Below, in pieces: positions 4,964 to 57,130 of a stretch of DNA of 64,000 nucleotides. The DNA comes from a virus. The stretch covers positions 42,546 through 106,545 of the IMG/VR virus record IMGVR_UViG_3300046673_000306; one strand, given 5' to 3'. The notes under the pieces are model-generated. The model was not told the origin of the DNA. It did not search any database and was given only the letters and a program-made list of their open reading frames with translations. How positions within the stretch are numbered: position 1 is the first letter of the stretch; each line of letters opens with the position of its first letter. The position numbers and the translations under genes were made by a program.

Positions 4964-5003
4964 AGTGGTATTGTACCAGGTAATACTGATGCTGTCAAGA
5001 CCC
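4964..5003 (-). promoter_or_regulatory. sigma70-type promoter P1 (leftward)
   Basis: GGGTC-TTGACA(4998-4993)-17 nt-TACAAT(4975-4970)-ACCACT-ATG. Confidence 0.85.
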
Positions 5004-5052
5004 GGGCCAGAATCTGGGCCCCGATCCGGTTGAGGTCCCATGTCCAGTTTTT

Positions 5053-5092
5053 GGGTCTTGACAAGATCAGTTCAACCTGGTACAATACTAAT
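5053..5092 (+). promoter_or_regulatory. sigma70-type promoter P2 (rightward)
   Basis: GGGTC-TTGACA(5058-5063)-17 nt-TACAAT(5081-5086)-ACTAAT-ATG. Confidence 0.85.
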
Positions 5093-5335
5093 ATGACTGA
5101 AACCAAGATCGACCTGGATCAGGACGAAGCCTACCTGATGAACGACGAGCTGTCCCGCCTCAGCGAGGACTACCATAGGGACGAGTCCGTCAAAGCAGCG
5201 GCCAAGGACTTACTGGCGGCCCTGAAGGGCCTCCTCTCGGACAAGTACTTGGCCGACCCGATCAACGCCGACAGAATGACCGCCGCCCGCCTCGCCGTGG
5301 ACAAGGCCGAGCCGTGGAGGAAACCGAGATCATGA
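5093..5335 (+). CDS. hypothetical early protein, leaderless (MTETKIDL...)
   Basis: ATG at the predicted +1 of P2; contains an AAAKDLLAALKGLL helix. Confidence 0.7.
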   Translation: MTETKIDLDQDEAYLMNDELSRLSEDYHRDESVKAAAKDLLAALKGLLSDKYLADPINADRMTAARLAVDKAEPWRKPRS

Positions 5336-5343
5336 TTCCGTCT

Positions 5344-5383
5344 GGGTCTTGACAAGCTGAGTTCAACCTGGTATAATACTATC
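5344..5383 (+). promoter_or_regulatory. sigma70-type promoter P3 (rightward), perfect consensus
   Basis: GGGTC-TTGACA(5349-5354)-17 nt-TATAAT(5372-5377)-ACTATC-ATG. Confidence 0.9.
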
Positions 5384-5506
5384 ATGACCATGAAACTGAT
5401 GACCAAGGAAATCCGAAACCGCATTCGCATGGGCCTGGGAATCGAGCGCGACCTGAGCTTCCGGCCCACGCCTCTGTCCAAGATCAAGTCCGGGGAGGTC
5501 AGATGA
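5384..5506 (+). CDS. 40-aa basic leaderless peptide (MTMKLMTKEIRNRIR...)
   Basis: Starts at P3 +1; stop overlaps the next ATG (ATGA); not in the ORF track. Confidence 0.55.
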   Translation: MTMKLMTKEIRNRIRMGLGIERDLSFRPTPLSKIKSGEVR

Positions 5507-6243
5507 ACATGGATGGCCAGCCGGTCCTGCCGGGCATGGAACCACTGCGCTACCAGATCGAGGACGCCGAGCACCGCCGGGACTACGTCCCGGTCCGGTG
5601 CGCGATCTGCGAGAAGGAGATGACGTACGACGAACACCAGAACGCGTCCTGCGGTGAGGAGGCCACCCAGTACGAAGGCGATCCGATCTGTGAGACCTGC
5701 TACTGCGAGGATGAGGCCGAGGCCACGTTAAGGGTCTTTGATGCGGATAACCCGGAAGGCGAGGGAGACTATGGAACCTCGATCTTCGAGATCGGGTCCT
5801 GCAAGAACATGACCGCTTGCGACGGCGACATCGGGACCTGGCGGACCAAGTGGGTGAGAACCGATGCCTGGCGCGGCTATATCGACCTGATCCCGCCCAA
5901 GGACTGGGCTCAGTTTCACTCCGACTGCTCGCTCATGGCCTCCGAGGACTCGGCGATGCTGGAAAAGTACGACGCCGCAGTACGCAAGGCCTTCATCGCG
6001 AAGGGCGTGCGGCTGATCCGGGCTGCGCTCAGGACCTCGAACTGCTGCTCCACTGGGGTCGATTACTTCGTCGAGAAGAAGTTCCTGAAGTGGGCGACTG
6101 CGGCGTCGCGCAAGCTCGCCGACGTCTTCCGGGACCCGGTCCGGTTCAATATGACGGCGATCACGGGCAAGGACCCGGCGAGCGCCGGGGTCGACGACTA
6201 CGTCGTGGCCGCGCTCGGGGCCAAGCTCCTGGGAGGGAAATAG
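5503..6243 (+). CDS. hypothetical protein with N-terminal Zn finger (CAIC...CETC)
   Basis: 246-aa ORF, GGGGAGG RBS, CxxC pairs. Confidence 0.75.
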   Translation: MNMDGQPVLPGMEPLRYQIEDAEHRRDYVPVRCAICEKEMTYDEHQNASCGEEATQYEGDPICETCYCEDEAEATLRVFDADNPEGEGDYGTSIFEIGSCKNMTACDGDIGTWRTKWVRTDAWRGYIDLIPPKDWAQFHSDCSLMASEDSAMLEKYDAAVRKAFIAKGVRLIRAALRTSNCCSTGVDYFVEKKFLKWATAASRKLADVFRDPVRFNMTAITGKDPASAGVDDYVVAALGAKLLGGK

Positions 6244-6244
6244 C

Positions 6245-6409
6245 GTGTTCAAGATAAAAATCGATACTGATTGCATCGCTGCCGATGACCGGGAGCAGGA
6301 AATCCACAGGATTCTCCAGCGCGTGGCCGTCAGGGTCTGCGCCGGAGAAACGTCTGGGAAGTGCATGGATATCAATGGAAATTCCATTGGGGACTGGGAA
6401 CTACAATGA
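6245..6409 (+). CDS. small phage protein (MFKIKIDTD...EIHRIL...DINGNSIGDW)
   Basis: Read by hand; GTG start with GGAGGG RBS; ATGA overlap with the next gene; DxNGNxxGxW ending seen in small phage proteins. Confidence 0.6.
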   Translation: MFKIKIDTDCIAADDREQEIHRILQRVAVRVCAGETSGKCMDINGNSIGDWELQ

Positions 6410-6933
6410 GCGGAATCGCGAGCAAGCCGATCATTGTAACGTCCAAGGTTTACGCCAAGATCAAGGAGTGGGCAGACGCCGGTCGCGTCGTCAACCACTT
6501 CCTGTGCCAGGACCTCTCGTGCCTGACAACGTACTTCTCCCCGAACCCCGAGTGCTGCTGCCCCAACCACGCCTGGGCCTGCCCCGGGAAGATCGAGGCC
6601 GCAGACGTCAAGCTCGCGGACCTCAAGGTCGAGGCCGTGGTCGCTCAGCCCGTGGCCTTCAAGGACTTGGTGATCTACTGGAGAGAGTCGAACCAGATGT
6701 CGATCGTCCTGGAGATTCCCGGACACTGGCGCCCGATCAAGGCCGTGTCCTTCGGCTATATCGGCGGGATCATGGGCATGGACCGGGCCACCCGCGCCGA
6801 GATCAAGCGCGAGCACGGCCAGAAGAAGCCGACGAAGTGGCTCAAGGCCGCGCGTGAGGACGGGTCCCTGGAGGATATCCTGAACCGGTTCGGCTACACG
6901 CTGAACGCCGAGCCCAAGGTCCTGGAGGCCTGA
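6406..6933 (+). CDS. hypothetical protein (MSGIASK...)
   Basis: Open frame, phage-like codon use, coupled start. Confidence 0.7.
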   Translation: MSGIASKPIIVTSKVYAKIKEWADAGRVVNHFLCQDLSCLTTYFSPNPECCCPNHAWACPGKIEAADVKLADLKVEAVVAQPVAFKDLVIYWRESNQMSIVLEIPGHWRPIKAVSFGYIGGIMGMDRATRAEIKREHGQKKPTKWLKAAREDGSLEDILNRFGYTLNAEPKVLEA

Positions 6934-6935
6934 CC

Positions 6936-7178
6936 ATGGAATTGTTCCGAGTCACGTCCGGGGCCTTCCTCGGGAGATGGATAATCGAGAAGTGGGGGTA
7001 TGCCCTGATCCTGGAGTGGTGGCGCAGAGCTGCCCCGGGGATCGGCGCCCACGGCTACGTCCATCCAATCGCCGACGGAGACTGGGCCGTGGACTTAACC
7101 GTAATGATGTGGCGCCGAGACCTGAGGAGCCAATTCGTCAATCACAACCCAGGCTTCAGGTACCGGCAGGGGGAATGA
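6936..7178 (+). CDS. Trp-rich small hypothetical protein
   Basis: 80-aa ORF, GGAGG RBS. Confidence 0.55.
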   Translation: MELFRVTSGAFLGRWIIEKWGYALILEWWRRAAPGIGAHGYVHPIADGDWAVDLTVMMWRRDLRSQFVNHNPGFRYRQGE

Positions 7179-7513
7179 TCATGCCCAAGAACAAGTGGTA
7201 CTGCGTCAAGAAGGCCTTCTGGTTCACCTCGAAGAAGGCGGAGAAGAAGTACGACCGCATCGTCGAGGCCCTGTCCGAGGCCAACGAGGAGGCCGTCGTC
7301 TACCACGGCTACGAGATGGCCCTCGTGGGGATAGCCCACCGCTTTGGAATGGAGCCGGTCGCGGCGTACGACCGCTCGACGTGCATCGCCATCCTCATGG
7401 ACCGCGATGAGATGACCCACGAGGACGCCGAGGACTACTTCGGCTACAACACCCTAGGGACCGGAGTTGATAATGCCCCGATCTTCGTGGAGATGGCGGA
7501 AGACATACCGTGA
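7175..7513 (+). CDS. conserved-type phage hypothetical protein
   Basis: GYEMALVG..VAAYD..CIAILM.RDEMT.EDAEDYFGYN..G..PIF pattern typical of a common phage family; start 7175 or 7181. Confidence 0.7.
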   Translation: MIMPKNKWYCVKKAFWFTSKKAEKKYDRIVEALSEANEEAVVYHGYEMALVGIAHRFGMEPVAAYDRSTCIAILMDRDEMTHEDAEDYFGYNTLGTGVDNAPIFVEMAEDIP

Positions 7514-7523
7514 GGAGGATATT

Positions 7524-8774
7524 ATGGTTATGAAGATTGTTGATTCCAGCGGCTCCTCTGGCAGGGGTTCATTCAGGGATGACCTCGTCAAGCTGATGAA
7601 GAAGCTGGAGCCGGGAGAAGGCGTCCAGGTCCCCCGGTCTGATCTACCGCGCAACTACGGCCAGCTTGTCGTCGACCTCATGCGCGATCCCCTTCCGTTC
7701 CCGTGGCACCTGAACGAGGAATCAGATGAGTCCGTCACCTTCTATAGGGACGCCGCCAAACCCAAGTTTGAGCCAGCTGCGAAGCCAGCTCATCAGGCTC
7801 CAGACAAGCTTCTGACTCCGCCAGCCCCAGAACCAAAGCCCGATTCTCCCGTTTACGACACCGACCGGGGCAGCATCAACAGGATCATCGAGGAGGTCAA
7901 GGTCAGGGGTGGGAGTTTCCCAGTCCCGAAGACGCTGTTCCGCGACGCGATCTCCCGATCCTTTTGTATGGGAGAACTGAGGCATCTAGGGTACAGGGTC
8001 GATAAGGGCATCAATTTCGACGTGATCATCGCTCCCGAACCTGTCCCGTGTCCGAAGGTCGAGAATGGTAAGAAGAACCAGGCCCCCAAGGATATTACCC
8101 ATCGTTCGCCCTTGGTCAAGGTCCCGATGCGGGAGCGCATCCTTACCTCTATCAAGAAAAATCCCGGCATAGCTCACAGCGCACTCAGGAAGAAATTCAC
8201 ACGGAGCACCGAGGAGGGCAAAAAGTTCGATAATGCTATTGGCGACCTGCTCGTGGAGAACTTAGTTGTCTCCACTTCAGTGAAATGGACAGGACCATAT
8301 GGTCTGAAGACGACCTATAGGATCGTTGGTGCCAAGGCAGCCGCGACCGAAGTCGCACCGGTCCACGGTCAACACCCGGCCAAGACAGTGGTTCTTGGAG
8401 TGGAGGCCGCACCCAAGCCTGTTCTTTCCCCGGCGCCGCCCGTGGTAACGCCCGCGCTGCCCAAGACGGAGCCCCAGCCGAAGCCCGAGCCGAAGCCCGA
8501 GCCGAAGCCCCAGCCGAAGCCCGAGGCCAAGCCCATCACCAGAGAAGAGGTCGCGGCTGTCCAGAAGATGATCAAGCCCGAGAAGTTCCCGACCGGGAAC
8601 AGGTGCTTCGCCTGCGTGGACGAGGACCATGTCCGGGTCTGCGGCGAGACCGCGTCCGTGACCTACAAGCAGGTCCGGCTCTGCCGCACCCACATGAACA
8701 GGCTGTTTTATGCCCGGAAGCTCTACGTCCGGACTTCGTTGAAGCACAATCCGATACTGCTCAAGAAGACATAG
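7524..8774 (+). CDS. hypothetical protein: winged-helix-like segment, Pro-Lys-rich linker, C-terminal Cys/His Zn finger
   Basis: GAGGAGG RBS before ATG 7524; RERILTSIKKNPGIAHSALRKKF; CFAC..VC..LCRTH. Confidence 0.65.
   Translation: MVMKIVDSSGSSGRGSFRDDLVKLMKKLEPGEGVQVPRSDLPRNYGQLVVDLMRDPLPFPWHLNEESDESVTFYRDAAKPKFEPAAKPAHQAPDKLLTPPAPEPKPDSPVYDTDRGSINRIIEEVKVRGGSFPVPKTLFRDAISRSFCMGELRHLGYRVDKGINFDVIIAPEPVPCPKVENGKKNQAPKDITHRSPLVKVPMRERILTSIKKNPGIAHSALRKKFTRSTEEGKKFDNAIGDLLVENLVVSTSVKWTGPYGLKTTYRIVGAKAAATEVAPVHGQHPAKTVVLGVEAAPKPVLSPAPPVVTPALPKTEPQPKPEPKPEPKPQPKPEAKPITREEVAAVQKMIKPEKFPTGNRCFACVDEDHVRVCGETASVTYKQVRLCRTHMNRLFYARKLYVRTSLKHNPILLKKT
8471..8534 (+). repeat. 12-bp tandem repeat encoding PKP(E/Q)
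   Basis: About five copies of GCCGAAGCCC(G/C)A. Confidence 0.8.
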
Positions 8775-8787
8775 GGAGGAGACCACA

Positions 8788-9378
8788 ATGACCGAGGAGA
8801 AGAAGGCCGAGATGTGGCTGAAGCGCCACACGTCTTACGACTGCGCGATCTGCGGCGTGGCCCACGAGCCCGCCCAGCGCCCGAAGGTGGAATATGGCAA
8901 GCTGACCAAGGCCCAGCGCCTGCTCTGGGACGTGGCCTCCACTTACGAGTACCACTCCCGCTTCGTGGTCGGGTCCGAGGAGGGTGAGGCCGTGAAGCGG
9001 ATCAAGGCCTGGCTGAAGCCCGGAGACACCGTCTACACCGTGCTCCGGCGCCGGTCGTCGTCCGGGACGTGTAGCCACATCTCGACCCTGGGGATAGAGG
9101 TCGAGGGCGGTAAGCCCCGGATCGTGGACTACACCTGGAACGTGGCCAAGATCGTGGGCTGGAAGATGGACCGCGACACCGGCGGGATCGTGATCAGCGG
9201 CGGCGGCATGGACATGGGCTTTCACCTGGTTTATACCCTGAGCCGGATCGTCTTCGCCAAGTTCCCGTGCATCGGCGGAGCCTGCCCGAGCAACGACCAC
9301 GTAAACGGCGACCGGAACCACGAGGTCGGCCACCTGCACAGCGATGGGGGCTACGCGCTGAAGCGCCAGTGGATGTAG
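8788..9378 (+). CDS. conserved-type phage hypothetical protein
   Basis: LKPGDTVYTVLR..S.SG and GGGMDMGFHLVYTLSR motifs; GGAGGAG RBS. Confidence 0.75.
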   Translation: MTEEKKAEMWLKRHTSYDCAICGVAHEPAQRPKVEYGKLTKAQRLLWDVASTYEYHSRFVVGSEEGEAVKRIKAWLKPGDTVYTVLRRRSSSGTCSHISTLGIEVEGGKPRIVDYTWNVAKIVGWKMDRDTGGIVISGGGMDMGFHLVYTLSRIVFAKFPCIGGACPSNDHVNGDRNHEVGHLHSDGGYALKRQWM

Positions 9379-9388
9379 GAGGGGGACA

Positions 9389-9610
9389 ATGAAGCTACGC
9401 TATGTCAGGGCATCGGGGGTCAGAAGTTTCTTTAAGGAACGTGGCTTGCGTACATCGGCTGGGTTCCTAGAATCCCTAGATCGCGAGGTCTGCGAGATGC
9501 TGGTCAAGTACCAGGTCATGGCCAAGGCGGACCGGCGCAGGACTGTGCTGGCCTGCGATATTTCCCTTCCTGGGGTGATCGCTAAACTCAGTCGGGGGAT
9601 GCGCCGATAA
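9389..9610 (+). CDS. bacterial-type histone-fold protein (Bd0055-like)
   Basis: YVRASGVRSFFKERGLRTSAGFLESLDREVCEMLVKYQVMAKADRRRTVLACDI aligns by eye to Bd0055-type histones, including the R-T-x4-D L2/alpha3 signature; GGAGG RBS. Confidence 0.8.
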   Translation: MKLRYVRASGVRSFFKERGLRTSAGFLESLDREVCEMLVKYQVMAKADRRRTVLACDISLPGVIAKLSRGMRR

Positions 9611-9671
9611 TCGTCGATACAATATAAAATTGCCCCATTTCTGGACTTATTACCCCATTACCGACAGAATC

Positions 9672-10430
9672 TCAGGCTGCGGGGGCCCTGTCGGGCTCCC
9701 CGATCTGATCCTGGCAGTAGTTCCTGAAAATTCCAGCGAAAACGCCCCTGGATATCAGCTCCCGATACCAGGCCTTCCTCAGCAGGTCCGTGGACGCGGG
9801 GTCAAAGGCGCTCCCGCAGTCCAGGATCGCGACCGGGACCTTGAGACCGGCGTAGGCCTGCTCGTCCTCCATGAGACCGGCCACAGGCTTGGGCTTGCGC
9901 CGGGTCCGCTTCGAGACCTCTCGGATCACGCCGTCGGCCAGCTCCGCAGCACCTCCGACGCCGTTGTGCCTGATCTCCAGGCCGTCGTCCTCGACGTAGT
10001 TCGTGATGTTGATCGCGACCACGATATCGGCGCGGATGTGCCTGGCGAAGTTGATCCTGGCGTTCTGATCCTGCTCCAGGCACGTCTTCCCCTGCCCCCA
10101 GACGTCCTGCGACAGGTGCTCCTCCGTGGGGTTGGGCCTGAGGCTGGGCCTCATCCTGGCGTAGCGCAGGTAGTGGCTCGCGCTCTCGTGGAACAGCGGG
10201 TACTGGGACTTCCCGATCTCCGAGTGCGACCGCCTCATGCACCGGGTCGCGAAGATGTCGGCGCCGATGATCCTGAGGAGGTCGTAGACGGTGGAGGAAA
10301 TCTCTGACGTGATGATGTCTCCTGGAACCCCGACTACGGGCTTCCTTTGGTAGCGCCATTCGGCCTTGTCGTCCCGATAGAGCCCACCGAGGGGGTCGAG
10401 CAGGATTCTGCGTCCTCTGATGTCGTTCAT
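9672..10430 (-). CDS. N-acetylmuramoyl-L-alanine amidase (Amidase_3)-fold protein with degenerate active site
   Basis: RILLDPLGG / ATR / ARINFAR..ADIVVAIN / PVAILDCG follow the Amidase_3 motif order, but the His/Glu ligands are substituted. Confidence 0.65.
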   Translation of the reverse strand: MNDIRGRRILLDPLGGLYRDDKAEWRYQRKPVVGVPGDIITSEISSTVYDLLRIIGADIFATRCMRRSHSEIGKSQYPLFHESASHYLRYARMRPSLRPNPTEEHLSQDVWGQGKTCLEQDQNARINFARHIRADIVVAINITNYVEDDGLEIRHNGVGGAAELADGVIREVSKRTRRKPKPVAGLMEDEQAYAGLKVPVAILDCGSAFDPASTDLLRKAWYRELISRGVFAGIFRNYCQDQIGEPDRAPAA

Positions 10431-11601: not shown

Positions 11602-12252
11602 TCAGACCTTTCCGATCATCGTATAGACCCCGTTCTGCATCCTCAGGACCTGACCACACCGCTTCGGGTCCCGGTAGGGTGCCCCGAGGCTCAGGTGTAG
11701 CCAGAAAACGCGGCCATACGATCTCTGCGCAGTCTCGACGATCAACTGCCCGAACAAGAATTTTTTGAGGCGACCGAACTTCCACAGCTTCTGGAATGCG
11801 TCCTCGACTCCTGCGGCTGTGTCTGCCGATCCGTCTTCATGGACGTCGGCGGCCTCGCATAGCATGTGCTGGGAATGCGTCGCCGATCCCGGGGTAACGC
11901 CATTGAGTTCGGGACAGCGGTAGCCGCTGTTGGCCACCAGCCTCTTACCGATCAGGTCCTCGGCGCGGCACAGCAGGGTGTCGACCGCCAGGAGCTTGTC
12001 GATCTGCTCCGGGGTCAGCATCCGGTTCTTGGCCTGGAGCGCGGCGTTGCTGGTCACGGTCAGCTGGTACAGCGTGCGCCGCATCAGCTTCCGGTCCGGG
12101 GCCACGATCGCTGGCCTCGGCGCGGGCGCCAGCGCCGGGATCGCCGGGGGCCTGGCCCTGGGCATCGCGCCCTGGGGGATGTAGCCCTCTCCCGAGGTCC
12201 CGGTTAGGACCCGGAAGATTCCAATGAGTAGTTCCACGAGTTTAGCCCACAT
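11602..12252 (-). CDS. endolysin, peptidase M15 (Zn D,D/L,D-peptidase)
   Basis: SGYRC.ELN..GS..SQHMLCEAAD...WLHLS motifs; GAGGAGG RBS before ATG 12252. Confidence 0.85.
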   Translation of the reverse strand: MWAKLVELLIGIFRVLTGTSGEGYIPQGAMPRARPPAIPALAPAPRPAIVAPDRKLMRRTLYQLTVTSNAALQAKNRMLTPEQIDKLLAVDTLLCRAEDLIGKRLVANSGYRCPELNGVTPGSATHSQHMLCEAADVHEDGSADTAAGVEDAFQKLWKFGRLKKFLFGQLIVETAQRSYGRVFWLHLSLGAPYRDPKRCGQVLRMQNGVYTMIGKV

Positions 12253-12287
12253 AGCGCCTCCTCTCGTCTCGGACGAAGCGGACTCGC

Positions 12288-12473
12288 CTACGCCAGCGTC
12301 CCGAAGTAGCCGACGTTTCCGCTGTACGTCTTCCCGGCAGGGACCGACTCGTCGCACAGGGTGGTGGCCACGGTACCGTCGGAGTTGAGCACCTGTATGA
12401 CGATGCGCTGCCCCGGAGTCAACCCCGAGACCTCGAACGCTTTTGTGGTTTGGCTCAATGTCATGTCAGTCAT
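12288..12473 (-). CDS. small tail-fibre-associated protein (paralog of 13212-13400)
   Basis: L.PGQ....V.N.DG.VA.TL..E..PAGKT....Y.G.L shared with 13212-13400. Confidence 0.7.
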   Translation of the reverse strand: MTDMTLSQTTKAFEVSGLTPGQRIVIQVLNSDGTVATTLCDESVPAGKTYSGNVGYFGTLA

Positions 12474-12485
12474 TTTTATTCTCCT

Positions 12486-13028
12486 TTAAGTTCTGATGAT
12501 TGGGGTGTAGGCGCGGCATGGCTGGATGTTATTGTGAGACCCGTCGCCTCCGGTGCTGCTAGAATCCTGCGACCCATAATTGGTGTTATAATTCGAGCCC
12601 CCACCTTGGTTCGGAGTATACGCGTTCAGCGCGTAGGTGGAGTGGGTGTGCGCTGGCATCTCTGCGATGGTTAGAGTATGGAGTTCTTCCCCGTATGCTC
12701 CATAGAGGGTCTTCGCCGTCAGCCCTCCGGCTATTGACGGTTCAGTTCCTAGCCCCCGGTCGAAATCGACGGCCTCGCATTTCGGGTGCTGTGAAGTCGA
12801 ACTGTGGCCGGGCAAGACCCCGTTGAGGGCGTCGCACCGGTACGCGCTATGGACGCGCATGGGGCCGACGAGCGGACGAGCTCCGCCTTCGAGCCACCCG
12901 GCAAGCATGGTGAGCTTTCCGACTTGGTCGTCGGTAACGTCGCGGTTCGCGTCCTGGAGCTTGGCGTTGTCCGTGCGCGTCATCTCATAGAGAGAGAAGT
13001 GCGTGGACAGGGATTGGTCGTCACGCAT
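12486..13028 (-). CDS. chimera: truncated M15 endolysin N-half fused to a tail-fibre tip (post-collar) segment
   Basis: LSTHFSLYEM..SAYRC.ALN..SQH..EAVD, then GEELHTLTIAEMPAHTH..STGG..HNNIQP..IIRT. Confidence 0.75.
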   Translation of the reverse strand: MRDDQSLSTHFSLYEMTRTDNAKLQDANRDVTDDQVGKLTMLAGWLEGGARPLVGPMRVHSAYRCDALNGVLPGHSSTSQHPKCEAVDFDRGLGTEPSIAGGLTAKTLYGAYGEELHTLTIAEMPAHTHSTYALNAYTPNQGGGSNYNTNYGSQDSSSTGGDGSHNNIQPCRAYTPIIRT

Positions 13029-13408: not shown

Positions 13409-16400
13409 CTATTGATACCTGATGATGAACATGACGTTGGCGTTCTTCGGGCGGGACTCTTGGTTCCCACCAGTCGGGCTGTCGATGATGTTACCCGTGT
13501 TAGCGGCCTGCGGGTACGGCCAGTATGCTCCCGCGCCGCCGCTCAGATTTCCGGAGGCGGGATTCATCGGGTGGAGATGACCTCGGTCCACGTCCATCTC
13601 GTAGGAGCCCACAGTGTTGCCGCTCCGGCCGCCAGGCAGACGGTTGAAGCGAGATGCGGCATCGGGGTCGGTGAGAGAGTCGGTAGAGTCGTGGCTCCAA
13701 CCTCTAGGGAAGCACCCGCGCATGTCCGGGAGGTTGAAGTGGGTCCCGTCCGGGGTGCCCCACCGGTCTCCGATGACCGCGTAGAGGTCGGGATACGAGA
13801 CCGTGAGCAGGCTCGTCCCGTCGCACTCCATCCATCCCGCAGGCGCGTTCGGCCCGCAGAACATGGTCATCGAGCCGACCGGGACCGAGGCGAGGGTCGT
13901 CCACGCTGCGGAGGACGGGCTGGTGGCCACCGGTACCTGGCCGACCGTCGGGGTCCCGGTCACGGGTATCGACAACGACCTAAGGAAGGGCCTGACGTCC
14001 TTGATATTCCCCTGGGTCACGATCGGAGATGATCCGTTGTTGTAGACGCAGACGACCTCGGCCAGGACCAGACCCGGCGTCGGGTATGGCGGAGGCGTCG
14101 ACGGAGTCAAGAGCGAGTATCCGGCAGAATTCTCGGGTACGGTGTTTAGGTTCCCGGAATCATCCAGATAAACCAGGCCCACGTAGCTGTTGGCGGCCAG
14201 GGCCAGAGGCACGGACGGGAGAGCGATGCTGCCTCCAGAGCACTGGACCTTGTTCGCACCGTCACTAGCAACGAAGTAGGGACCAGTTGCGACGTTCAGG
14301 TTGATATCCGGTGTCGCCGAGGCGTATGGCCGCAGCTGGTCGAGGCCGACCTCGGAGATGAAACCGTTGGTGCTCATGGCCGCGTTCATCCCGATCTCGA
14401 TCTGCTGAAGCGCTCCCTGGACGGTAGTGGACGTTATCTGGAAGTTGTTGGGGTTGCTCCCGGTGACCGGTTGGATTCCGACTAGGGACGCGCCTTCATC
14501 AGGCCCGACTGCCGCCAGCGTGGTATAGCTCACGAACCCGCTCTCCAGAGCCACTAGGGAGATGTTCGGGCTGTACATGGCCACCGTGGTCGCAGCCGGT
14601 GACGGGGTATTGATCCCGTAGCTCAGCTGAGACCCGACCACGCCGTTTATAAAGTAGGATGGGAGCAGGGTCTTCGGCGCCTGGAAGAAGCAGCCCGTTA
14701 CCGTGGGGTTGCTGGCGATCGGGGTCGGCAGCGTTACTCCGTCGAGGATGTTGATCGCCGCAGATGCCGAGCCCGGACCCATAATGAATGTGGTGTCGAT
14801 GATCAGGGGATTGGATATATTCGTTATGTCGATGATATCGACTGCCGCCGGTGTCCCGGAGGTGCAGTCCGCCGAGCTGAAGGTGCAGTTTGAGATCACT
14901 GGGTTCGATCCGTTCGCGACCACGGCGTTGTTCCCGTTGTTGGTGCACGAAGTGATGCTGCAAAGGGCACCCGACTTCACTACTAGACCCAGGCTCGCGG
15001 CGTTATTGCCAACGGGGGTGTCTGCGGCGTCACCGGTTCCGCCTAGGATCAGGCAGGCCGTGAACGTGGCGTTCACCGAGAGTCCGGTCATGACCACGGT
15101 CGTCACCGTGCAGTCGGAGAAGGCGGAGGTTGATGTCCCGGAGATGAACATGCAAGCCCCGACCACGACGTCGGTCCAGGTCAAGGACGTGCCCGAGACC
15201 ACGATCTGGTTGATCGTCGAGGTGATGTCGCTGCTGGTCAGGGTATTCACCGAACCGCTGAGGCTAACGCAGTCCGTGGCCGTCCCCGCCACTGGGCTAG
15301 ACAAGGACGTGATCGGGGCGATGTTAAAGTCCATGTCCACGGCAGTGAACGACTCGCTGCTATACAGGGCCCGATCATTGGATGTCACCGAGCACCCGCT
15401 GGCGATCATCGTCCCGTTGTTGACCACGGCTCCGATCCCGGGGTTCGGGCCCGTGCTGAAGGCGGTTACTTCGGTGTCGGTAATGGTCACGGTCGCGGTC
15501 GTGTTCACGACGCCCGCCGCCGAGGTCGCCCCGACCCAGTTCCCGCACCAGATATAGGAATCTTGGATCGTGAGCGTCGACCCGATATTGGCCAGGACCC
15601 CGACGGTTCCGAGGGCGCCAACAGGAGCCGTGGCCTGGCTCTCGCCGTATATCTTTTGGCCGATCAGGCAGTTGCTGATCGTAGCCGACAGGACCGACGC
15701 CCCGACGCTGACGATGACGTCGTTCCCGGTTAGGCCGACGCCGATATCCAGGCCTAGATTCGAGACCGTGACATTGTTAGCCGAGATCGTGAGCGCGTTG
15801 AAGTTCCCGCCAACGATGGGCGCGACCCTGATCGTGGTCGTCGTCGGATCAAGGCCCGTTAGCGTGACGTAGGGATTGACCATCGTTATCGGGAACTCGC
15901 TGACGTAGGTCCCGGGCTCGACCAGGACCACGTACTGGTTCGCGTATCCTACGGCGGTCGGCCCAGACATCGGTATGCTGTTTAGGGCCTCCTGGACGCT
16001 GGTGAACTGGCCCCCGGTCTGAGACACGGTAATGAGGTTGTTTGGGGAGAAGTTCTTGGACAGGGCCGCGATCGGCCTCACGTCAATCACGTCTGAGGCG
16101 TTGATCGCGGTCTGGGCCGTGTATCGGTTCACCATCGCTAAGGGGAAGGTCCAGGACCCGGTCGGGACCGCAGGGGCCAAGGGGTTGTTGACGTTGACGG
16201 ATTGCGCTATGTTGATGGAGTACTGTACCTGCTCGCGGTAGGCGCCTGGGCCAAGGGTCGGGTCCTCGATATTGGGGTACTGGGTCGCGGTGACGTCCGC
16301 TATCGAGACCGTGAGGTAGATCAAGTCTGTCCTGGGTGCGGTCGGGACACCGACAGGCATGTTGTAGATGAACTGCGGGGGCGCGCCTATGGCCTGGTGC

Positions 16401-16669
16401 AGGCCATCGGGGAGGATTAGCCGCTGGCCCTGGGTGTAGATCGCGCCCAGGGTGATGTTCACGGCATTGTCCAGGCCGCTGGCGACGACGAGGAAGCCCT
16501 CGCCCAGGGCTCCGTCAGTGATCAGGTTCTCGATGAACCGCTGCCTCTCGTTGTTCTGGATGTCCTGGAGTTCGACCATCTCGAAGTCGGCGGGGTGAGT
16601 CCCCTCCTGGAAGACCACGGTCTCGAAGCGGTTGGCTTCGTCGAAGGTTCTCTTGCTCAGCTCTGGCAT
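13409..16669 (-). CDS. tail fibre/spike with pectin-lyase-like beta-helix and C-terminal tail collar domain
   Basis: GGQFTSVQEALN..VLVEPGTY beta-helix cap; VPVGSMTMF..APAGWMECDG..YPDLYAVIG..FNLPDMRG collar; ESRPKN..FIIRY ending. Confidence 0.85.
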   Translation of the reverse strand: MPELSKRTFDEANRFETVVFQEGTHPADFEMVELQDIQNNERQRFIENLITDGALGEGFLVVASGLDNAVNITLGAIYTQGQRLILPDGLHQAIGAPPQFIYNMPVGVPTAPRTDLIYLTVSIADVTATQYPNIEDPTLGPGAYREQVQYSINIAQSVNVNNPLAPAVPTGSWTFPLAMVNRYTAQTAINASDVIDVRPIAALSKNFSPNNLITVSQTGGQFTSVQEALNSIPMSGPTAVGYANQYVVLVEPGTYVSEFPITMVNPYVTLTGLDPTTTTIRVAPIVGGNFNALTISANNVTVSNLGLDIGVGLTGNDVIVSVGASVLSATISNCLIGQKIYGESQATAPVGALGTVGVLANIGSTLTIQDSYIWCGNWVGATSAAGVVNTTATVTITDTEVTAFSTGPNPGIGAVVNNGTMIASGCSVTSNDRALYSSESFTAVDMDFNIAPITSLSSPVAGTATDCVSLSGSVNTLTSSDITSTINQIVVSGTSLTWTDVVVGACMFISGTSTSAFSDCTVTTVVMTGLSVNATFTACLILGGTGDAADTPVGNNAASLGLVVKSGALCSITSCTNNGNNAVVANGSNPVISNCTFSSADCTSGTPAAVDIIDITNISNPLIIDTTFIMGPGSASAAINILDGVTLPTPIASNPTVTGCFFQAPKTLLPSYFINGVVGSQLSYGINTPSPAATTVAMYSPNISLVALESGFVSYTTLAAVGPDEGASLVGIQPVTGSNPNNFQITSTTVQGALQQIEIGMNAAMSTNGFISEVGLDQLRPYASATPDINLNVATGPYFVASDGANKVQCSGGSIALPSVPLALAANSYVGLVYLDDSGNLNTVPENSAGYSLLTPSTPPPYPTPGLVLAEVVCVYNNGSSPIVTQGNIKDVRPFLRSLSIPVTGTPTVGQVPVATSPSSAAWTTLASVPVGSMTMFCGPNAPAGWMECDGTSLLTVSYPDLYAVIGDRWGTPDGTHFNLPDMRGCFPRGWSHDSTDSLTDPDAASRFNRLPGGRSGNTVGSYEMDVDRGHLHPMNPASGNLSGGAGAYWPYPQAANTGNIIDSPTGGNQESRPKNANVMFIIRYQ

Positions 16670-22758: not shown

Positions 22759-24384
22759 TCAGCTCGCGATGTAGATCGTTATATCCCCGGCCAGCGGATA
22801 CTGATCCCGGCCCAGGACGATGGTCGAGGCCGTGGCCTGGCCCCTGATCGCCAGCAGCGCCAGGGGCTCGGTATCGTTGACCCCCGCGACGCTGTCGATC
22901 AGATCGAAGCTGGTGCTGTACTTGATTGTGGCCCCGAGCGTCAACCCCCCGATGTACTCGGCGATGTTCGATTGAATCTGGGCCACGGTCGCGACGGGAT
23001 CGGCGCCGGGCACGAGCGTGATCGTATCCGTTACGTCGATGAAGACCTCGATCGCGGACCTGGGCAACAAATTCCTGGCCGGGACCGCGTTCATGTTCTG
23101 GTTCATGAAGAAGTCGAGGGCGTTCTGCAACACGCCGTTGTACTGGTAGGTCACGGTCAGGACGTCGCCACCGCTGACCCCGGAGATCACGACCAGAGAA
23201 TCGGTGGAACTCGTGCTCTCGGAGACGTCGCTGACGTCCTTGGCCAGCAAATACTGGGTCGGGGGCAGGGTCACGGATGTCGTGGTGTCGTAGACGCTTG
23301 TGATCGAGAGCACGGGCTGTAGGCTGAGGACCATCGGGGTTCCGACTAAGGTCGGGACCGTGATGGTGTCGACCTGAGTCAGACCTATGTTTGCCTCGGC
23401 CTGGATGTAGAGGTCGACGTAGCCTCCCGCGCCCTCGGCCCTGGTCAGCAGAGGGTCACCGGCGCCGACGACCAGGGCATCAATTACGTTTGGAAGCGTC
23501 AGGGCCAGGCGCCGGATGCCACGGAAGGTCACGGCGTCATTGGCCAAGAACGTGGCCTGTATCCTGGCCGCGAAGTCGGCGGCGGACTCGGAGTCGGTTC
23601 CGCCCGTGGTCGCGTTCTGGTTATAGACCGTGGACACGCCCGTGATCGTTGACCCCAGGAGCGTGATCGTCCCGGGGCCGACATTGCCCGCCGCGCCCGC
23701 GACCTGGGCCTGGATCGGGATCGTGACGCTGGATTGCCCCGGGTAAATGGTCCCGCTCTCGGTCGTGATGAAACCCAGTGACGTCTGGGCCGTGGTCGAG
23801 AGCGTGGACACCACCTCTCCCAGGGGCACGACGATCGGAATCGTCGTGATCTGAGGCGCACTGAACGTAGCGAACCCGGTGCTGAACGTTGGCCCGCCAG
23901 GGGTCAGATTGAAGTTGGCGCCGTAGTCGGCGAGTTCGGTGCCCTGAAACTCGTCGACGTTGGAGAGGGAGTAGATGTCGGCCACGCGTTGGATCGAGGA
24001 GTAGAGGTTGGCCAGGCTCGTGCTCGGGAGGTCGCAGAACAGGTTCATGGTCACGGACCCGTCCTGGGTCGAGGCCAGAGGCTGGAGCGCCCCGAGGTTG
24101 GTCTGCATCTCGGTCCTGACCGTGACGAAGTCCTTGAACGACGAGTCCCCCTGGAAGGTGTAGGTCGCGTAGTAGGCAACGCCGGTGGCGGGCTGCTTGC
24201 CCGGCAGCGACCAGTCCACGCCTCCGCTTGTCAGCTGATAGTCGACGCCAAGGGTGAAGTCGGCCTCGGACGCGGAGTACCCGACGTTGACTAGGGATAG
24301 GGCGGTGAAGGCCAGGGCGTCGATCCCCCCGGGATCGCCCTTGAACACCCGCTCTGTTATCTGGTTAATAAGAGGGATTGCCAT
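22759..24384 (-). CDS. baseplate J-like protein
   Basis: AQVAGAAGNVGPGTI..V.N..ATTGGTDSES.ADF.ARI motif. Confidence 0.85.
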   Translation of the reverse strand: MAIPLINQITERVFKGDPGGIDALAFTALSLVNVGYSASEADFTLGVDYQLTSGGVDWSLPGKQPATGVAYYATYTFQGDSSFKDFVTVRTEMQTNLGALQPLASTQDGSVTMNLFCDLPSTSLANLYSSIQRVADIYSLSNVDEFQGTELADYGANFNLTPGGPTFSTGFATFSAPQITTIPIVVPLGEVVSTLSTTAQTSLGFITTESGTIYPGQSSVTIPIQAQVAGAAGNVGPGTITLLGSTITGVSTVYNQNATTGGTDSESAADFAARIQATFLANDAVTFRGIRRLALTLPNVIDALVVGAGDPLLTRAEGAGGYVDLYIQAEANIGLTQVDTITVPTLVGTPMVLSLQPVLSITSVYDTTTSVTLPPTQYLLAKDVSDVSESTSSTDSLVVISGVSGGDVLTVTYQYNGVLQNALDFFMNQNMNAVPARNLLPRSAIEVFIDVTDTITLVPGADPVATVAQIQSNIAEYIGGLTLGATIKYSTSFDLIDSVAGVNDTEPLALLAIRGQATASTIVLGRDQYPLAGDITIYIAS

Positions 24385-34588: not shown

Positions 34589-36295
34589 TTAGGCCAGGCT
34601 CAGGTCGATCGTGAAGTTGATGAGGATGTCCAGGACCTCGCCAGCGGGCTTGTACGAGAACGACACCGTGTACTTGGTGATCGATCCCGGGTTCAGGAAC
34701 GCGGACGACGGAGCAAAGGCCAAGATATCGCCGGAGGCGATCCTGGTCGTCAGGTACAAGTCCGTGATGTCCTCGATCTCGGACGGGACCGTGGGGCTGC
34801 CGCGTTGGCCCAGGACCTGGCGCCGCAGCTCGTTGCGCAGACCCGAGATCATGTCGTCCCTAGTCTCCACCGTGGGGATGCTCTTCTCGATGTCGCTGGA
34901 GATGTCGACGGTGACGTCGTTGGCCGTGGTTACGACCCCGCTGAAGCTCTCCAGGACCATGCCGCCGTTGTCGTCCATGGTGTCCATCTGCACGGGGTTG
35001 AACACGGTCACGAAGTCGTCGAAGACGGGGATGATCACGTTGAGTTCGGTCAGCGACACCTGCTGCGTGCTCCGGTACGCCGCGAGGGCAACGGCCACGT
35101 ACGAGCCGTCGAGCGTGAGTTCCAACGCCGCGTTGTTGGACACGATCGACAGCTGCGGGTCGTAGTTGCAGGCGATGGTCAAGCGGCAGTTGTTGATGGC
35201 GTTGAAGCCCTGAAGCGCGGAGATCAGGGAGTTGTACGTGGAGTTGTTCTTGAGACCGGCGTAGCACCGGCGCTCGGACAGGAACTGCGGGTCCGCCATC
35301 TGGATGCAGTGCGCGAAGCACGCGGCGATCACGGGGTTCACGGACCCGTCCGCGAGGTTCCCGATCAGGGGCACGATGTAGTAGGGCTTGATCCCGGCCA
35401 CCGGCTGCTGGAGCTTGAGCAGCGCCGCCTGGAAGTCGGCCAGGGTCGGGGCGCCGGGGGTCGCGGGCGTGATCTGGCACAAGATCAACTGGCTGGCGCC
35501 GATCCCGGGGTCCATCGCGATCTGGGCGGCCATGGACAGCTGCGAGGCTGGGTCCAAGGTCCCGGGGCTGATCACGGACGTGATGGGTCCGTACTGGGAT
35601 ATGATCGGACCGAGGTTTCCTCCGGAGAAGTACATCGGGACGTAGTCGGAGGCGACCTTGGCATAGGTGTAGGTTGTCCAATACACGGCATCCGCCGCCG
35701 GTCCGTGACCCGCGATCCAGACGATGCCGGTGGGCCCCAGGACGTAGTCAGTGCCCAGGGCGTAGTCGGTCGTGGTCTGGAAGTTGCCGACGCGGGTGAT
35801 CACCAGCGGGGGGTGAGCCAGGGTATCGGTGCTGCCGACGGGCACGGGGTCCGTCGCCACGATCCCGGTGTCGCTGAAGGTCAGGCCCGTTACTTGACCG
35901 ATCAGGCCGAGGCCGAGGGTCGCGGGGGAGTCGCCCTCGACCGTGCGGTAGACGTTGTAGCCGATGGCGCCGGGGATCGCGGTCCAGGACAGGGCATTGT
36001 AGTTCGTTTTGCTGAGCACGGCGTTGCCCGAGGACGTGGTCGCGCCTGCGGAGGCCACGCTCTCTCCGCCGGGGTTGGCGGCGGTGATGACGTAGGTCCA
36101 GGTCGCGGTTCCGGCAGTGCCCATGACCGTCAGGGTCTGAGACGCGGGGGGCAGGAGTCCGAAGCGAGTGTCCTCCTCCGTGACCGTGAACGTGGTCGAC
36201 CCCTCTCCGATGATGGCCAGGACCCTCTGGGAAGCCGAGGTCGGGGCTCCGGTCGGGGACGGCGTGTACTGACTCGTGACTCTAGGCAATGCCAT
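34589..36295 (-). CDS. tail sheath protein
   Basis: 568 aa; HC..M.....ERR; sheath C-terminus V.F.YKP..V..I.I.F; precedes the tube. Confidence 0.8.
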   Translation of the reverse strand: MALPRVTSQYTPSPTGAPTSASQRVLAIIGEGSTTFTVTEEDTRFGLLPPASQTLTVMGTAGTATWTYVITAANPGGESVASAGATTSSGNAVLSKTNYNALSWTAIPGAIGYNVYRTVEGDSPATLGLGLIGQVTGLTFSDTGIVATDPVPVGSTDTLAHPPLVITRVGNFQTTTDYALGTDYVLGPTGIVWIAGHGPAADAVYWTTYTYAKVASDYVPMYFSGGNLGPIISQYGPITSVISPGTLDPASQLSMAAQIAMDPGIGASQLILCQITPATPGAPTLADFQAALLKLQQPVAGIKPYYIVPLIGNLADGSVNPVIAACFAHCIQMADPQFLSERRCYAGLKNNSTYNSLISALQGFNAINNCRLTIACNYDPQLSIVSNNAALELTLDGSYVAVALAAYRSTQQVSLTELNVIIPVFDDFVTVFNPVQMDTMDDNGGMVLESFSGVVTTANDVTVDISSDIEKSIPTVETRDDMISGLRNELRRQVLGQRGSPTVPSEIEDITDLYLTTRIASGDILAFAPSSAFLNPGSITKYTVSFSYKPAGEVLDILINFTIDLSLA

Positions 36296-56693: not shown

Positions 56694-57130
56694 TTGGCTG
56701 GGGGTTCCTGCTGCGGGGGCTGCTCCTGCCCGCCCTTGACCCCGGAGAGGTAGTCCATCAGGGCCTTGCCGTCCAGAATCTTCTCCACGTCCCAGGCCGC
56801 CGGGTCCTGGAGCACGCGGTTGATCAGGTCCTCGAACCAGGTCCGCATCCTGCGGTCAACCTCTGCGGCGTCGACCTGGGACCCGCGCTGGCTCAGGTAG
56901 TTGACCAGGGCCTGATACCGCTGTCCTGCGGCGTGGTCCGCCGGGGCCTTGGCGGTCTTGGCCTTGGCCATGCGGCCCAAGGACGCCATCTGGAGCTTGC
57001 GGTAGTCGAGGTCGGGGAGGTGGGTCTTCTCCGACATGAGGCCGGGGCGCAGGGCCACGTCCTCTGGGGAGCCGGTGCGCACGTCCTTGCGGTCTCCCGC
57101 GCCACGGTAGTTCTTGGGGTCGAAGCTCAT
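56690..57130 (-). CDS. hypothetical head-region protein
   Basis: 146 aa; ATGA/GTGA overlaps. Confidence 0.7.
   Translation of the reverse strand: MSFDPKNYRGAGDRKDVRTGSPEDVALRPGLMSEKTHLPDLDYRKLQMASLGRMAKAKTAKAPADHAAGQRYQALVNYLSQRGSQVDAAEVDRRMRTWFEDLINRVLQDPAAWDVEKILDGKALMDYLSGVKGGQEQPPQQEPPAK

What the first reader, a model, noticed from the sequence alone, without database searches (positions are those of the whole stretch)
9389..9610. Bacterial-type histone encoded by the phage at the end of an early operon
Seen: a 73-aa basic protein with three predicted helices and AKADRRRTVLACDI. Established: Bdellovibrio Bd0055-type histones have the same layout (V..SKVK..IKEKG.MNTS...L...A..AKADGRKTVMARD), with the R-T-x4-D L2 signature; such histones occur in a limited set of phyla, including Bdellovibrionota, Elusimicrobiota, Planctomycetota and Leptospira. 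Inference: it may coat phage DNA against nucleases, or heterodimerise with and subvert a host histone. It also hints at the host lineage. The extra C-terminal tail (LPGVIAKLSRGMRR) is unusual.
Basis: partly seen in the sequence, partly recalled or inferred. Interest (0 to 1): 0.75.

Follow-up and report, generated by a model that had tools for sequence, protein, structure and literature searches.

The report
Phage-encoded Bdellovibrio-type miniature histone
An uncultured tailed phage of roughly 170 kb carries a real, conserved 73-codon gene for a very basic miniature histone of the Bdellovibrio (HBb/Bd0055) type, probably made early to bind and bend DNA; a 2025 survey already catalogued such phage histones by computer, so this is a well-supported new example, not a new kind.

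Summary
The ORF at 9389-9610 (+) is real: 73 aa, pI 10.9, net charge +10, with a GGAGG ribosome-binding site.

What supports the histone reading:
- It matches the solved Bdellovibrio histone HBb (E 3e-4 alone, 1.4e-9 as a family profile).
- Its model has alpha1-L1-alpha2-L2 topology, and its best structural matches are HLp, HBb and HTkC.
- It is predicted to form a handshake homodimer (score 0.51, best control 0.01).

It belongs to a small family of about 26 clusters, all about 74 aa. I found these only in one clade of large myovirus-like phages, always between the early region and the lysis/tail module. The "unusual" C-terminal tail is conserved across the family (L60, P61, I64, L67, S68, R69, R73). 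[quoted passage not shown] 2025).

Early expression is inferred. Near-consensus sigma-70 promoters lie upstream, and relatives carry their own conserved extended -10 box.

The host-lineage hint is not supported. The phage clade is monophyletic on a long branch with an unresolved sister group, and I found no close cellular relative. Nuclease protection and host-histone poisoning remain untested.

This scan has met phage Bd0055-type histones in at least 15 other genomes.

Verdict: new member of a known kind.

The parts
9389..9610 (+). Histone-fold gene, 73 codons plus TAA stop
   Evidence: ORF list and sequence. Matches to HBb. Family alignment.
9378..9385 (+). Shine-Dalgarno GGAGGGGG. The GGAGG core lies 6 nt before the ATG and overlaps the stop codon of the upstream gene.
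   Evidence: Read from the sequence.
9410..9439 (+). Codons 8-17: helix alpha1, with DNA-contact equivalents S9, R12 and K16
   Evidence: AF2 model. Mapping to HBb contact residues.
9458..9529 (+). Codons 24-47: central helix alpha2, 24 residues (short, as in alpha3-type histones). It forms the core of the predicted dimer interface.
   Evidence: AF2 model. Dimer contacts 34:34, 38:14 and 42:15.
9530..9565 (+). Codons 48-59: loop L2 and the one-turn alpha3. Carries D48, R49, the R50...D57 'RD clamp', and R51-T52 (the K-T DNA-contact pair of HBb).
   Evidence: HMMER alignment to HBb. Column counts. HBb residue roles from PMC11317129.
9566..9607 (+). Codons 60-73: family-conserved amphipathic, basic C-terminal helix (LP..IA.LSR.L.R)
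   Evidence: AF2 helix 60-70 at low confidence. Conservation of L60, P61, I64, L67, S68, R69 and R73.
5349..5377 (+). Sigma-70-type promoter, 12 of 12 matches with TG extension. Likely start of the + strand block that ends with the histone gene.
5058..5086 (+). Second sigma-70-type promoter, 11 of 12 matches with TG extension
4970..4998 (-). Divergent sigma-70-type promoter, 11 of 12 matches with TG extension, for the leftward block
5503..9378 (+). Five upstream co-oriented genes of unknown function (5503-6243, 6361-6933, 7181-7513, 7524-8774, 8788-9378). They are not conserved in relatives.
9672..10430 (-). Convergent conserved gene, first of the lysis/tail module. It marks the end of the histone transcription unit. 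The 61-nt spacer (9611-9671) has no hairpin terminator.

Best explanation
The gene encodes an alpha3-truncated histone-fold protein of the HBb (Bd0055) 'bacterial dimer' type. [quoted passage not shown] Two chains most likely interlock through antiparallel alpha2 helices (the histone handshake). The dimer would contact the DNA backbone without sequence specificity. Contacts would come from the start of alpha1 (S9, R12, K16), loop L1 (R21, T22, S23) and the R51-T52 pair of loop L2 held by the R50-D57 clamp. It would bend or compact DNA as HBb does. At net charge +10 it should bind more tightly than HBb. The conserved amphipathic basic C-terminal helix either adds DNA contacts or links dimers. 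The gene is transcribed by the host RNA polymerase early in infection. The protein would then act as the phage's own nucleoid-associated protein, on replicating phage DNA, on the host nucleoid, or on both. Shown here: gene reality, homology, fold, conservation, phage context. Inferred: dimerisation (a model), DNA binding and bending (by homology), early timing (from promoters), and the in vivo target.
For: Homology. HBb chains 8fvx and 8cmp match at E 2.8e-4 and 3.1e-4 with the single sequence. They match at 1.4e-9 with a profile of 22 phage-family members only. HTkC follows at 1.6e-6 and HLp at 0.024.
Fold. AF2 with the alignment gives helices 8-17 and 24-47 at pLDDT 81-96. The Foldseek top six are HLp and HBb chains (probability 0.97-1.00, TM by target 0.73-0.80), and HTkC ranks 11th (TM by target 0.75). 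VIA-align gives Z 5.3-5.6 over 53-56 residues, against 4.1 or less for other histone folds. The ESM Atlas structure neighbours are Spirochaetota, Planctomycetota and Bdellovibrionota histone clusters, TM 0.70-0.72.
Dimer. Score 0.51 against a best control of 0.01. That mark was reached by 20 of 30 proteins solved as pairs and 1 of 23 solved as single chains. Runs agree in at least 98% of contacts, and partner pLDDT is 70-71. The interface uses 10-11, 29-30, 33-35 and 37-38, the equivalents of HBb V11, L31, I35 and L38. It includes an alpha2-alpha2 crossing at 34:34 and brings L1 (18-23) against the C-terminal end of alpha2 in the partner chain (20:42, 18:42); L2 residues 50-55 are also in the interface. 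HBb dimers are solved, so this pass may reflect likeness to them.
DNA-contact positions across 22 family members: S9 in 16, K10 in 17, K/R12 in 22, K/R21 in 22, S23 in 20, D48 in 22, K/R51 in 19, T52 in 22. Net charge is +7 to +11.
Selection. All 11 differences between L002 and L012 are synonymous.
Phage context. Baseplate J, sheath, tail fibre, portal and an M15 endolysin lie in the window. The record is an IMG/VR virus record.
Early timing. Nine sites with at most one mismatch to TTGACA-N16-18-TATAAT occur in 106 kb, where I estimate about 0.2 by composition. Three lie at 4970-5377. In four related lineages the gene has its own conserved TCTG(T/C)TATACT extended -10 box 35-60 nt upstream.
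Against: Nothing was measured: no binding, bending or expression data exist for any member. This copy has lost three of HBb's contact residues (T8 to A, K10 to G, R57 to C). Six of 22 family members have His in place of the clamp Asp. The C-terminal helix is modelled at pLDDT around 50 and does not appear in the confident dimer interface, so its role is a guess. No Pfam or PHROG model recognises the protein. Histone folds also serve as pure protein-protein modules, as in TAFs, and Schwab et al. note that not every 'histone' organises a genome.
Confidence: 0.78

Rival explanations
1. Higher-order phage chromatin. The conserved C-terminal helix joins HBb-like dimers into tetramers or filaments. 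These bridge or coat phage DNA and shield it from restriction or CRISPR nucleases. This is.
For: The C-terminal helix is conserved, with a hydrophobic stripe (L60, I64, L67, L/M71) and basic residues on the other face. Net charge is very high, +7 to +11. The gene is a conserved core gene of the phage clade. Schwab's separate 'phage histone' class is predicted to tetramerise through a C-terminal helix.
Against: Liu et al. report only dimers, not tetramers, for the Bd0055-like viral class. The helix is short (11-14 residues), modelled at low confidence, and absent from the confident interface. No oligomer larger than a dimer was modelled here. There is no evidence of any kind for nuclease protection.
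Confidence: 0.12
2. Host take-over factor. The protein targets the host nucleoid or a host histone or other nucleoid protein. It would act by heterodimerising or competing, to shut off host transcription, rather than organising phage DNA.
For: Early-type promoters. Phages are known to encode early proteins that act on host nucleoid proteins, for example T7 gp5.5 and LUZ24 gp4 (titles, and my own knowledge).
Against: The host is unknown. No close cellular relative of the family was found. The family sits on a long separate branch, so heterodimerisation with a host histone has no support. The conserved positions are the DNA-backbone contacts.
Confidence: 0.07
3. A non-DNA-binding histone-fold adaptor, or a sequence-specific regulator of phage gene expression.
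For: Histone folds can act as protein-interaction modules. In four related lineages the gene is paired with, and in L003 overlaps, a gene for an HExxH protein that could be a partner.
Against: The K/R-T pair, the RD clamp and the basic alpha1 and L1 positions are conserved, and the positive charge is extreme. Both fit backbone binding. The partner gene is absent from the 106 kb held for this phage.
Confidence: 0.03

Closest known systems
[quoted passage not shown]
   Same: Encoded by Caudoviricetes contigs from IMG/VR. Structurally like Bd0055. Predicted dimer rather than tetramer. The C-terminus forms a helix instead of HBb's loop. All four features hold for this protein.
   Different: I could not confirm that this exact family is in their set, because no supplementary lists are held. 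New here: the family marks one phage clade at a fixed genome position, has its own early-type promoter in relatives, and is often followed by an HExxH gene.
HBb (Bd0055) of Bdellovibrio bacteriovorus, the 'bacterial dimer' alpha3 histone (PDB 8fvx, 8cmp, 9ezz, 9f0e; PMC11317129)
   Same: About 33-36% identity over 55 residues. Shared features: short alpha2, one-turn alpha3, D-x-R-K/R-T-V-x3-D motif with RD clamp, hydrophobic dimer core, and the alpha1/L1/L2 backbone-contact positions.
   Different: It is phage-encoded, not an essential cellular gene. Net charge is +10. It has an extra conserved 14-residue C-terminal helix, Arg where HBb has G50, and Val/Ile/Cys where HBb has the DNA-contact R57. 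It lies on a long separate branch.
Face-to-face alpha3 histones HTkC (PDB 9f2c) and HLp (PDB 9qt0)
   Same: Same miniature fold, Z 5.3-5.6. Profile matches at 1.6e-6 and 0.024.
   Different: The sequence match is weaker than to HBb. The Asp before the R-K-T motif (D48) is shared with HBb but not with HLp, and is Glu in HTkC. I did not test the face-to-face tetramer.
'Phage histones' of Schwab et al. 2024 (PMC11390915), for example A0A2E7QIQ9
   Same: A phage-borne alpha3 histone fold followed by a C-terminal helix.
   Different: That class lacks the RxTxxxD motif and is predicted to tetramerise through its C-terminal domain. This family keeps R-K/R-T-x4-D and is closer in sequence to HBb.
Phage-encoded HU-type protein TF1 of Bacillus phage SPO1 (my own knowledge, not checked here)
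   Same: A functional analogy: a small phage-encoded dimer that bends DNA and acts on phage DNA during infection. HBb bends DNA like HU/IHF.
   Different: The fold is unrelated (HU versus histone). No HU-family gene was found in this phage record.

Membership tests
alpha3-truncated histone superfamily (Schwab et al. 2024) | Histone-fold order alpha1-L1-alpha2-L2-alpha3, with structural similarity to solved members | tested here: met
   AF2 helices 8-17 and 24-47. Top Foldseek and VIA hits are HLp, HBb and HTkC, with TM by target 0.73-0.80 and Z 5.3-5.6.
alpha3-truncated histone superfamily (Schwab et al. 2024) | alpha2 is 4-5 residues shorter than in nucleosomal histones, and alpha3 is only 3-4 residues | tested here: inconclusive
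   alpha2 is 24 residues. The D57-I-S-L60 turn is followed by Pro61 in 15 of 22 members, which fits a truncated alpha3 plus a new helix. But residues 53-73 are modelled at pLDDT around 50, so a kinked longer alpha3 is not excluded.
alpha3-truncated histone superfamily (Schwab et al. 2024) | Handshake homodimer | tested here: met
   Prediction only: score 0.51, best control 0.01, with alpha2-alpha2 crossing and L1 packed against the partner's alpha2 end. The pass may reflect likeness to solved HBb dimers.
Bacterial dimer (HBb/Bd0055-like) histones | Significant sequence similarity to HBb (the category was defined by sequence clustering) | tested here: met
   E 2.8e-4 with the single sequence and 1.4e-9 with the family profile. 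HBb is the best PDB match.
Bacterial dimer (HBb/Bd0055-like) histones | RKTxxxD motif (RD clamp plus K-T pair) | tested here: met
   The window protein has R50-R51-T52-V-L-A-C-D57. In the family: R50 16/22, K/R51 19/22, T52 22/22, D57 16/22 with His in 6.
Bacterial dimer (HBb/Bd0055-like) histones | Conserved lysines on alpha1 (HBb K10, K12, K16) | tested here: met
   The window protein has G10, R12, K16, so 2 of 3. In the family: K10 17/22, K/R12 22/22, K/R16 12/22.
Bacterial dimer (HBb/Bd0055-like) histones | Exclusive to bacteria, and ends just after the one-turn alpha3 | tested here: not met
   The gene is encoded by tailed phages. It carries a conserved 14-residue C-terminal helix. It is therefore a viral offshoot, not a member in the strict sense.
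Bacterial dimer (HBb/Bd0055-like) histones | Lacks the face-to-face tetramer residues (R48, N52 of the FtF profile) | not tested
   The FtF profile numbering was not available, and no tetramer was modelled.
[quoted passage not shown] 2025) | Virus-encoded (IMG/VR Caudoviricetes) | tested here: met
   IMG/VR virus record with tail, baseplate and portal genes.
[quoted passage not shown] 2025) | Matches the Schwab bacterial_dimer HMM at E < 0.001 | not testable with these tools
   That HMM is not on hand. The proxy is the HBb match at 2.8e-4 (single) and 1.4e-9 (profile).
[quoted passage not shown] 2025) | Predicted dimer with a C-terminal helix in place of HBb's loop | tested here: met
   Dimer prediction. 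Helix 60-70 in the AF2 model, at low confidence. The sequence is conserved.
Schwab 'phage histones' | Histone domain lacks RxTxxxD | tested here: not met
   The motif is present, so it is not filed here.

The most novel reading that the evidence does not exclude
One clade of roughly 170-kb phages keeps, as a core early gene, a super-basic HBb-like histone. Its conserved C-terminal amphipathic helix would link dimers into a DNA-coating or bridging polymer, a phage 'chromatin'. This would organise or shield replicating phage DNA. In most lineages it might be regulated or removed by the co-transcribed HExxH (weakly SprT-like) protease encoded next to it.
Probability: 0.12. Interest if true: 0.7.

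Novelty: new member of a known kind. Interest (0 to 1): 0.4.

Why it matters
Bacterial histones were recognised only in 2023-2024. No paper I found reports a bench test of a phage copy. This family offers a clean test case. It is a single small gene that is strongly conserved and confined to one phage clade at a fixed position. It has an early-type promoter and one clear structural novelty relative to HBb, the C-terminal helix. Showing what it binds, and whether the helix changes dimer behaviour, would tell whether phages use histones as architectural proteins for their own DNA or as weapons against the host nucleoid. It does not open a new category.

Tried and rejected
- Pfam and PHROGs gave no match for the protein. 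Scanning all 22 family members against Pfam gave only one weak hit each to CBFD_NFYB_HMF (0.0049) and DUF1931 (0.01).
- tblastn against 50,697 cultured or deposited phage records found no match.
- The word-indexed protein search with the single sequence found only a 99% identical copy. The exhaustive HMMER search of 1.84 billion representatives gave 8 hits, one of them (P0005) a repetitive artefact.
- AF2 without an alignment gave a useless model, pLDDT 48.
A3 found no relative. The scan with the short P0009 group found only Micrarchaeota MAGs, which says nothing about the host.
- Host inference failed. There are no tRNAs in the 106 kb. The portal is at most 33% identical to phages of unrelated hosts.
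- There is no intrinsic terminator in the 61-nt spacer after the gene.
- There is no HU-family gene in the record.
- The HExxH neighbour seen in relatives has no real counterpart in this record. The E 0.16 tblastn hit lies on the wrong strand of an Rrf2-like gene.
- No supplementary lists of Liu et al. are held, so I could not check for the related contig identifiers in their set.

Full report
**Observation.** GGAGGGGG at 9378-9385 gives a strong ribosome-binding site, and it overlaps the stop of the upstream gene (8788-9378). The product has 17 Lys+Arg against 7 Asp+Glu and a pI of 10.9. The only ORFs on the opposite strand here are 41 and 48 codons long.

**What the DNA is.** The window is the last 64 kb of a 106,545-bp IMG/VR virus record. 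CheckV rates the record 64% complete, which implies a genome near 166 kb. On the minus strand it carries genes for:
- a tail-fibre protein with a collar domain (13409-16669);
- baseplate J (22759-24384);
- a tape-measure-like protein;
- a tail sheath (34589-36295);
- a portal (57127-60060);
- two Peptidase_M15 endolysin-like proteins (11602-12357 and 12486-13028).

It is therefore a contractile-tailed phage of a peptidoglycan-bearing bacterium. The portal is at most 33% identical to that of any deposited phage.

**Identity of the protein.**
- Sequence. Pfam and PHROGs do not recognise it. phmmer against all PDB chains finds the Bdellovibrio histone HBb/Bd0055 (8fvx at E 2.8e-4, 8cmp at 3.1e-4) over residues 7-60. 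An exhaustive HMMER search of 1.84 billion representatives gave only eight hits. A profile search then gave 26 clusters, nearly all 73-77 aa, and JGI labels some of them 'histone H3/H4'.
- Profile. A profile of the 22 phage-type members alone hits HBb at 1.4e-9, the archaeal face-to-face histone HTkC at 1.6e-6 and Leptospira HLp at 0.024.
- Structure. AF2 with an alignment gives alpha1 (8-17) and alpha2 (24-47) at pLDDT 81-96, a low-confidence L2 region, and a helix at 60-70. The Foldseek top six are HLp and HBb chains (TM by target 0.73-0.80), with HTkC at rank 11. VIA-align gives Z 5.3-5.6 over 53-56 residues, above other histone folds at 4.1 or less. The ESM Atlas gives the same picture. 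It also lists two mainly viral clusters of 52 and 136 members as nearest by features.

**Dimer.** A two-copy prediction scored 0.51 against a best control of 0.01. That mark was reached by 20 of 30 proteins solved as pairs and 1 of 23 solved as single chains. Runs agreed in at least 98% of contacts, with pLDDT 70-71. The contacts show handshake geometry: an alpha2-alpha2 crossing at 34:34, alpha1 (14, 15) against alpha2' (38, 42), and L1 (18-23) against the C-terminal end of alpha2' (42), with L2 residues 50-55 also in the interface. They use the equivalents of HBb's V11, L31, I35 and L38. Because HBb dimers are solved, this shows likeness and is not independent proof.

**Conserved residues.** I mapped the protein onto HBb with the HMMER alignment and took residue roles from Hu et al. 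(PMC11317129). The family keeps these positions:

| Position (window numbering) | Members of 22 |
|---|---|
| S9 | 16 |
| K10 | 17 |
| K/R12 | 22 |
| K/R21 | 22 |
| S23 | 20 |
| D48 | 22 |
| R50 | 16 |
| K/R51 | 19 |
| T52 | 22 |
| V53 | 22 |
| D57 | 16 (His in 6) |

HBb's R57 is replaced by Val, Ile or Cys. This particular copy also has A8 and G10 where HBb has T8 and K10. The C-terminal segment is conserved too: L60 in 21, P61 in 15, I64 in 19, L67 in 22, S68 in 18, R69 in 18 and R73 in 19. It has a hydrophobic stripe at 60/64/67/71 with basic residues around it. Net charge across the family is +7 to +11. The 'unusual tail' is therefore the family's hallmark.

**Selection and distribution.** I examined the flanking genes of all ten loci (L002, L003, L007-L013 and the window) that encode a relative. 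Nine encode a full family member. Eight of those nine share other genes with this phage. The exception, L008, is a 1-kb fragment that shows only a weak match to one short ORF. The shared genes are the p2497, p3069 and p4541 homologues on one side, and the conserved 250-aa gene, membrane gene, endolysin and tail fibre on the other. Those that extend past the histone gene have the same order there. The tenth locus, L013, is discussed under 'Origin and host'. The five genes just upstream in the window are not conserved, but the histone gene is. L002 and L012 differ at 11 of 168 nt in the gene, all at third positions and all synonymous. L007's copy is identical while its flanks are about 97% identical. 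A pattern scan of one genome from each of 185,579 prokaryote species found no close relative.

**Timing.** In the 106-kb record, nine sites match TTGACA-N16-18-TATAAT with at most one mismatch, and eight of the nine have a TG extension. From base composition I estimate about 0.2 such sites by chance. Three form a divergent promoter cluster at 4970-5377, and the rightward block from there ends with the histone gene. In the L002/L010/L012, L003/L011, L008 and L009 lineages the gene instead has its own conserved TCTG(T/C)TATACT extended -10 box 35-60 nt upstream. In L003 this sits in an 11/12 promoter, back to back with a 12/12 promoter. Early transcription by the host polymerase is therefore a reasonable inference, but it has not been observed. 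Downstream, a 61-nt spacer without a hairpin terminator separates the gene from the convergent lysis/tail module.

**Origin and host.** I built a maximum-likelihood tree on 73 columns. It held 22 phage members, 9 short relatives, the two halves of a bacterial doublet, and HBb, HTkC and HLp fragments as printed. The phage family forms one clade (99/99) on a long stem of 1.08 changes per column. Its sister group is unresolved. The short relatives (the P0009 group) turned out to lie in Micrarchaeota MAGs. L013 is a low-GC bacterial contig with a two-domain HBb-like protein. With the host unknown, heterodimerisation with a host histone cannot be assessed.

**Comparison with the literature.** Schwab et al. 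2024 define the alpha3 family, the 'bacterial dimer' category (RKTxxxD motif, alpha1 lysines, dimers only) and a separate 'phage histone' category. That last category lacks the motif and tetramerises through a C-terminal helix. Liu et al. [quoted passage not shown] These are predicted dimers whose C-terminus forms a helix instead of HBb's loop. The present protein has every feature they list. No supplementary lists are held, so I could not check whether this family is in their set. My two literature searches found no bench test of a phage histone of this type. Earlier follow-ups in this scan reached the same verdict for Bd0055-type histones in other phage genomes. The finding is thus a new, well-characterised member of a known, computationally described kind.

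**Mechanism and odds.**
- About 0.78: an early-made handshake dimer that binds the DNA backbone non-specifically and bends or compacts DNA like HBb. The extra basic helix would strengthen binding or add inter-dimer contacts, and the protein would serve as the phage's own nucleoid-associated protein.
- About 0.12: helix-mediated oligomers that coat or bridge phage DNA, which would cover the nuclease-shield idea.
- About 0.07: action on the host nucleoid or on host proteins.
- About 0.03: a role that does not involve DNA binding.

All functional steps are inferred from homology and context.

I therefore could not examine the source samples or expression.

Noticed in passing
L002:8223-8894, L003:8216-8863, L009:3848-4495, start in L008:899-1006: In four related phage lineages a 215-223-aa gene immediately follows the histone gene; in L003 the two overlap by 4 nt. 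The product has an HEIAHVYDW...GNGH motif and a very basic coiled C-terminal half. Pfam SprT-like matches only weakly (E 8e-4 and 0.026, below the cut-off). PHROGs and PDB give no match. The gene is absent from the 106 kb held for the window's phage.
   Followed up: partly
window 4970-5377; also G000 positions 9220, 19988, 20168, 24625, 33186, 105958: Nine near-perfect TTGACA-N16-18-TATAAT sites occur in a 62% GC phage record, eight of them with a TG extension. I estimate about 0.2 by composition. Three form a divergent early promoter cluster.
   Followed up: partly
L013:5746-6186: A low-GC bacterial metagenome contig encodes a 146-aa two-domain (pseudodimeric) HBb-like histone next to a beta-ketoacyl-ACP synthase-like gene. 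Its second half groups with HBb in the tree (96/84).
   Followed up: partly
L004, L005, L006 (Micrarchaeota MAGs), match at about 5001-5195 in each: Short (55-66 aa) alpha3 histones ending in RQTVMAQD are the nearest non-phage sequence relatives picked up by the searches. They lie in DPANN archaeal genomes.
   Followed up: no
window 9389-9610 compared with neighbours: The histone gene has lower GC (57%) and GC3 (0.66) than neighbouring genes (GC3 0.73-0.92). This could reflect foreign origin or different codon selection.
   Followed up: no
window 9672-10430 (-): A conserved roughly 250-aa gene, convergent with the histone gene, is 59-60% identical in relatives. Pfam gives no hit at E <= 0.1. 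Another first-stage note reads it as a degenerate Amidase_3.
   Followed up: partly
window 12486-13028 (-): A 180-aa ORF joins a Peptidase_M15_3 N-terminal part to a C-terminal part that matches tail-fibre/tail-protein PHROGs. It lies next to a second M15 endolysin-like gene at 11602-12357.
   Followed up: no
G001 and G002 (records of L002 and L003): IMG/VR classes these related records as proviruses. Yet near-identical sequence lies on a 170,218-bp metagenome contig (CXWL01002872.1), close to the genome size implied by CheckV. The lifestyle is therefore unclear.
   Followed up: no
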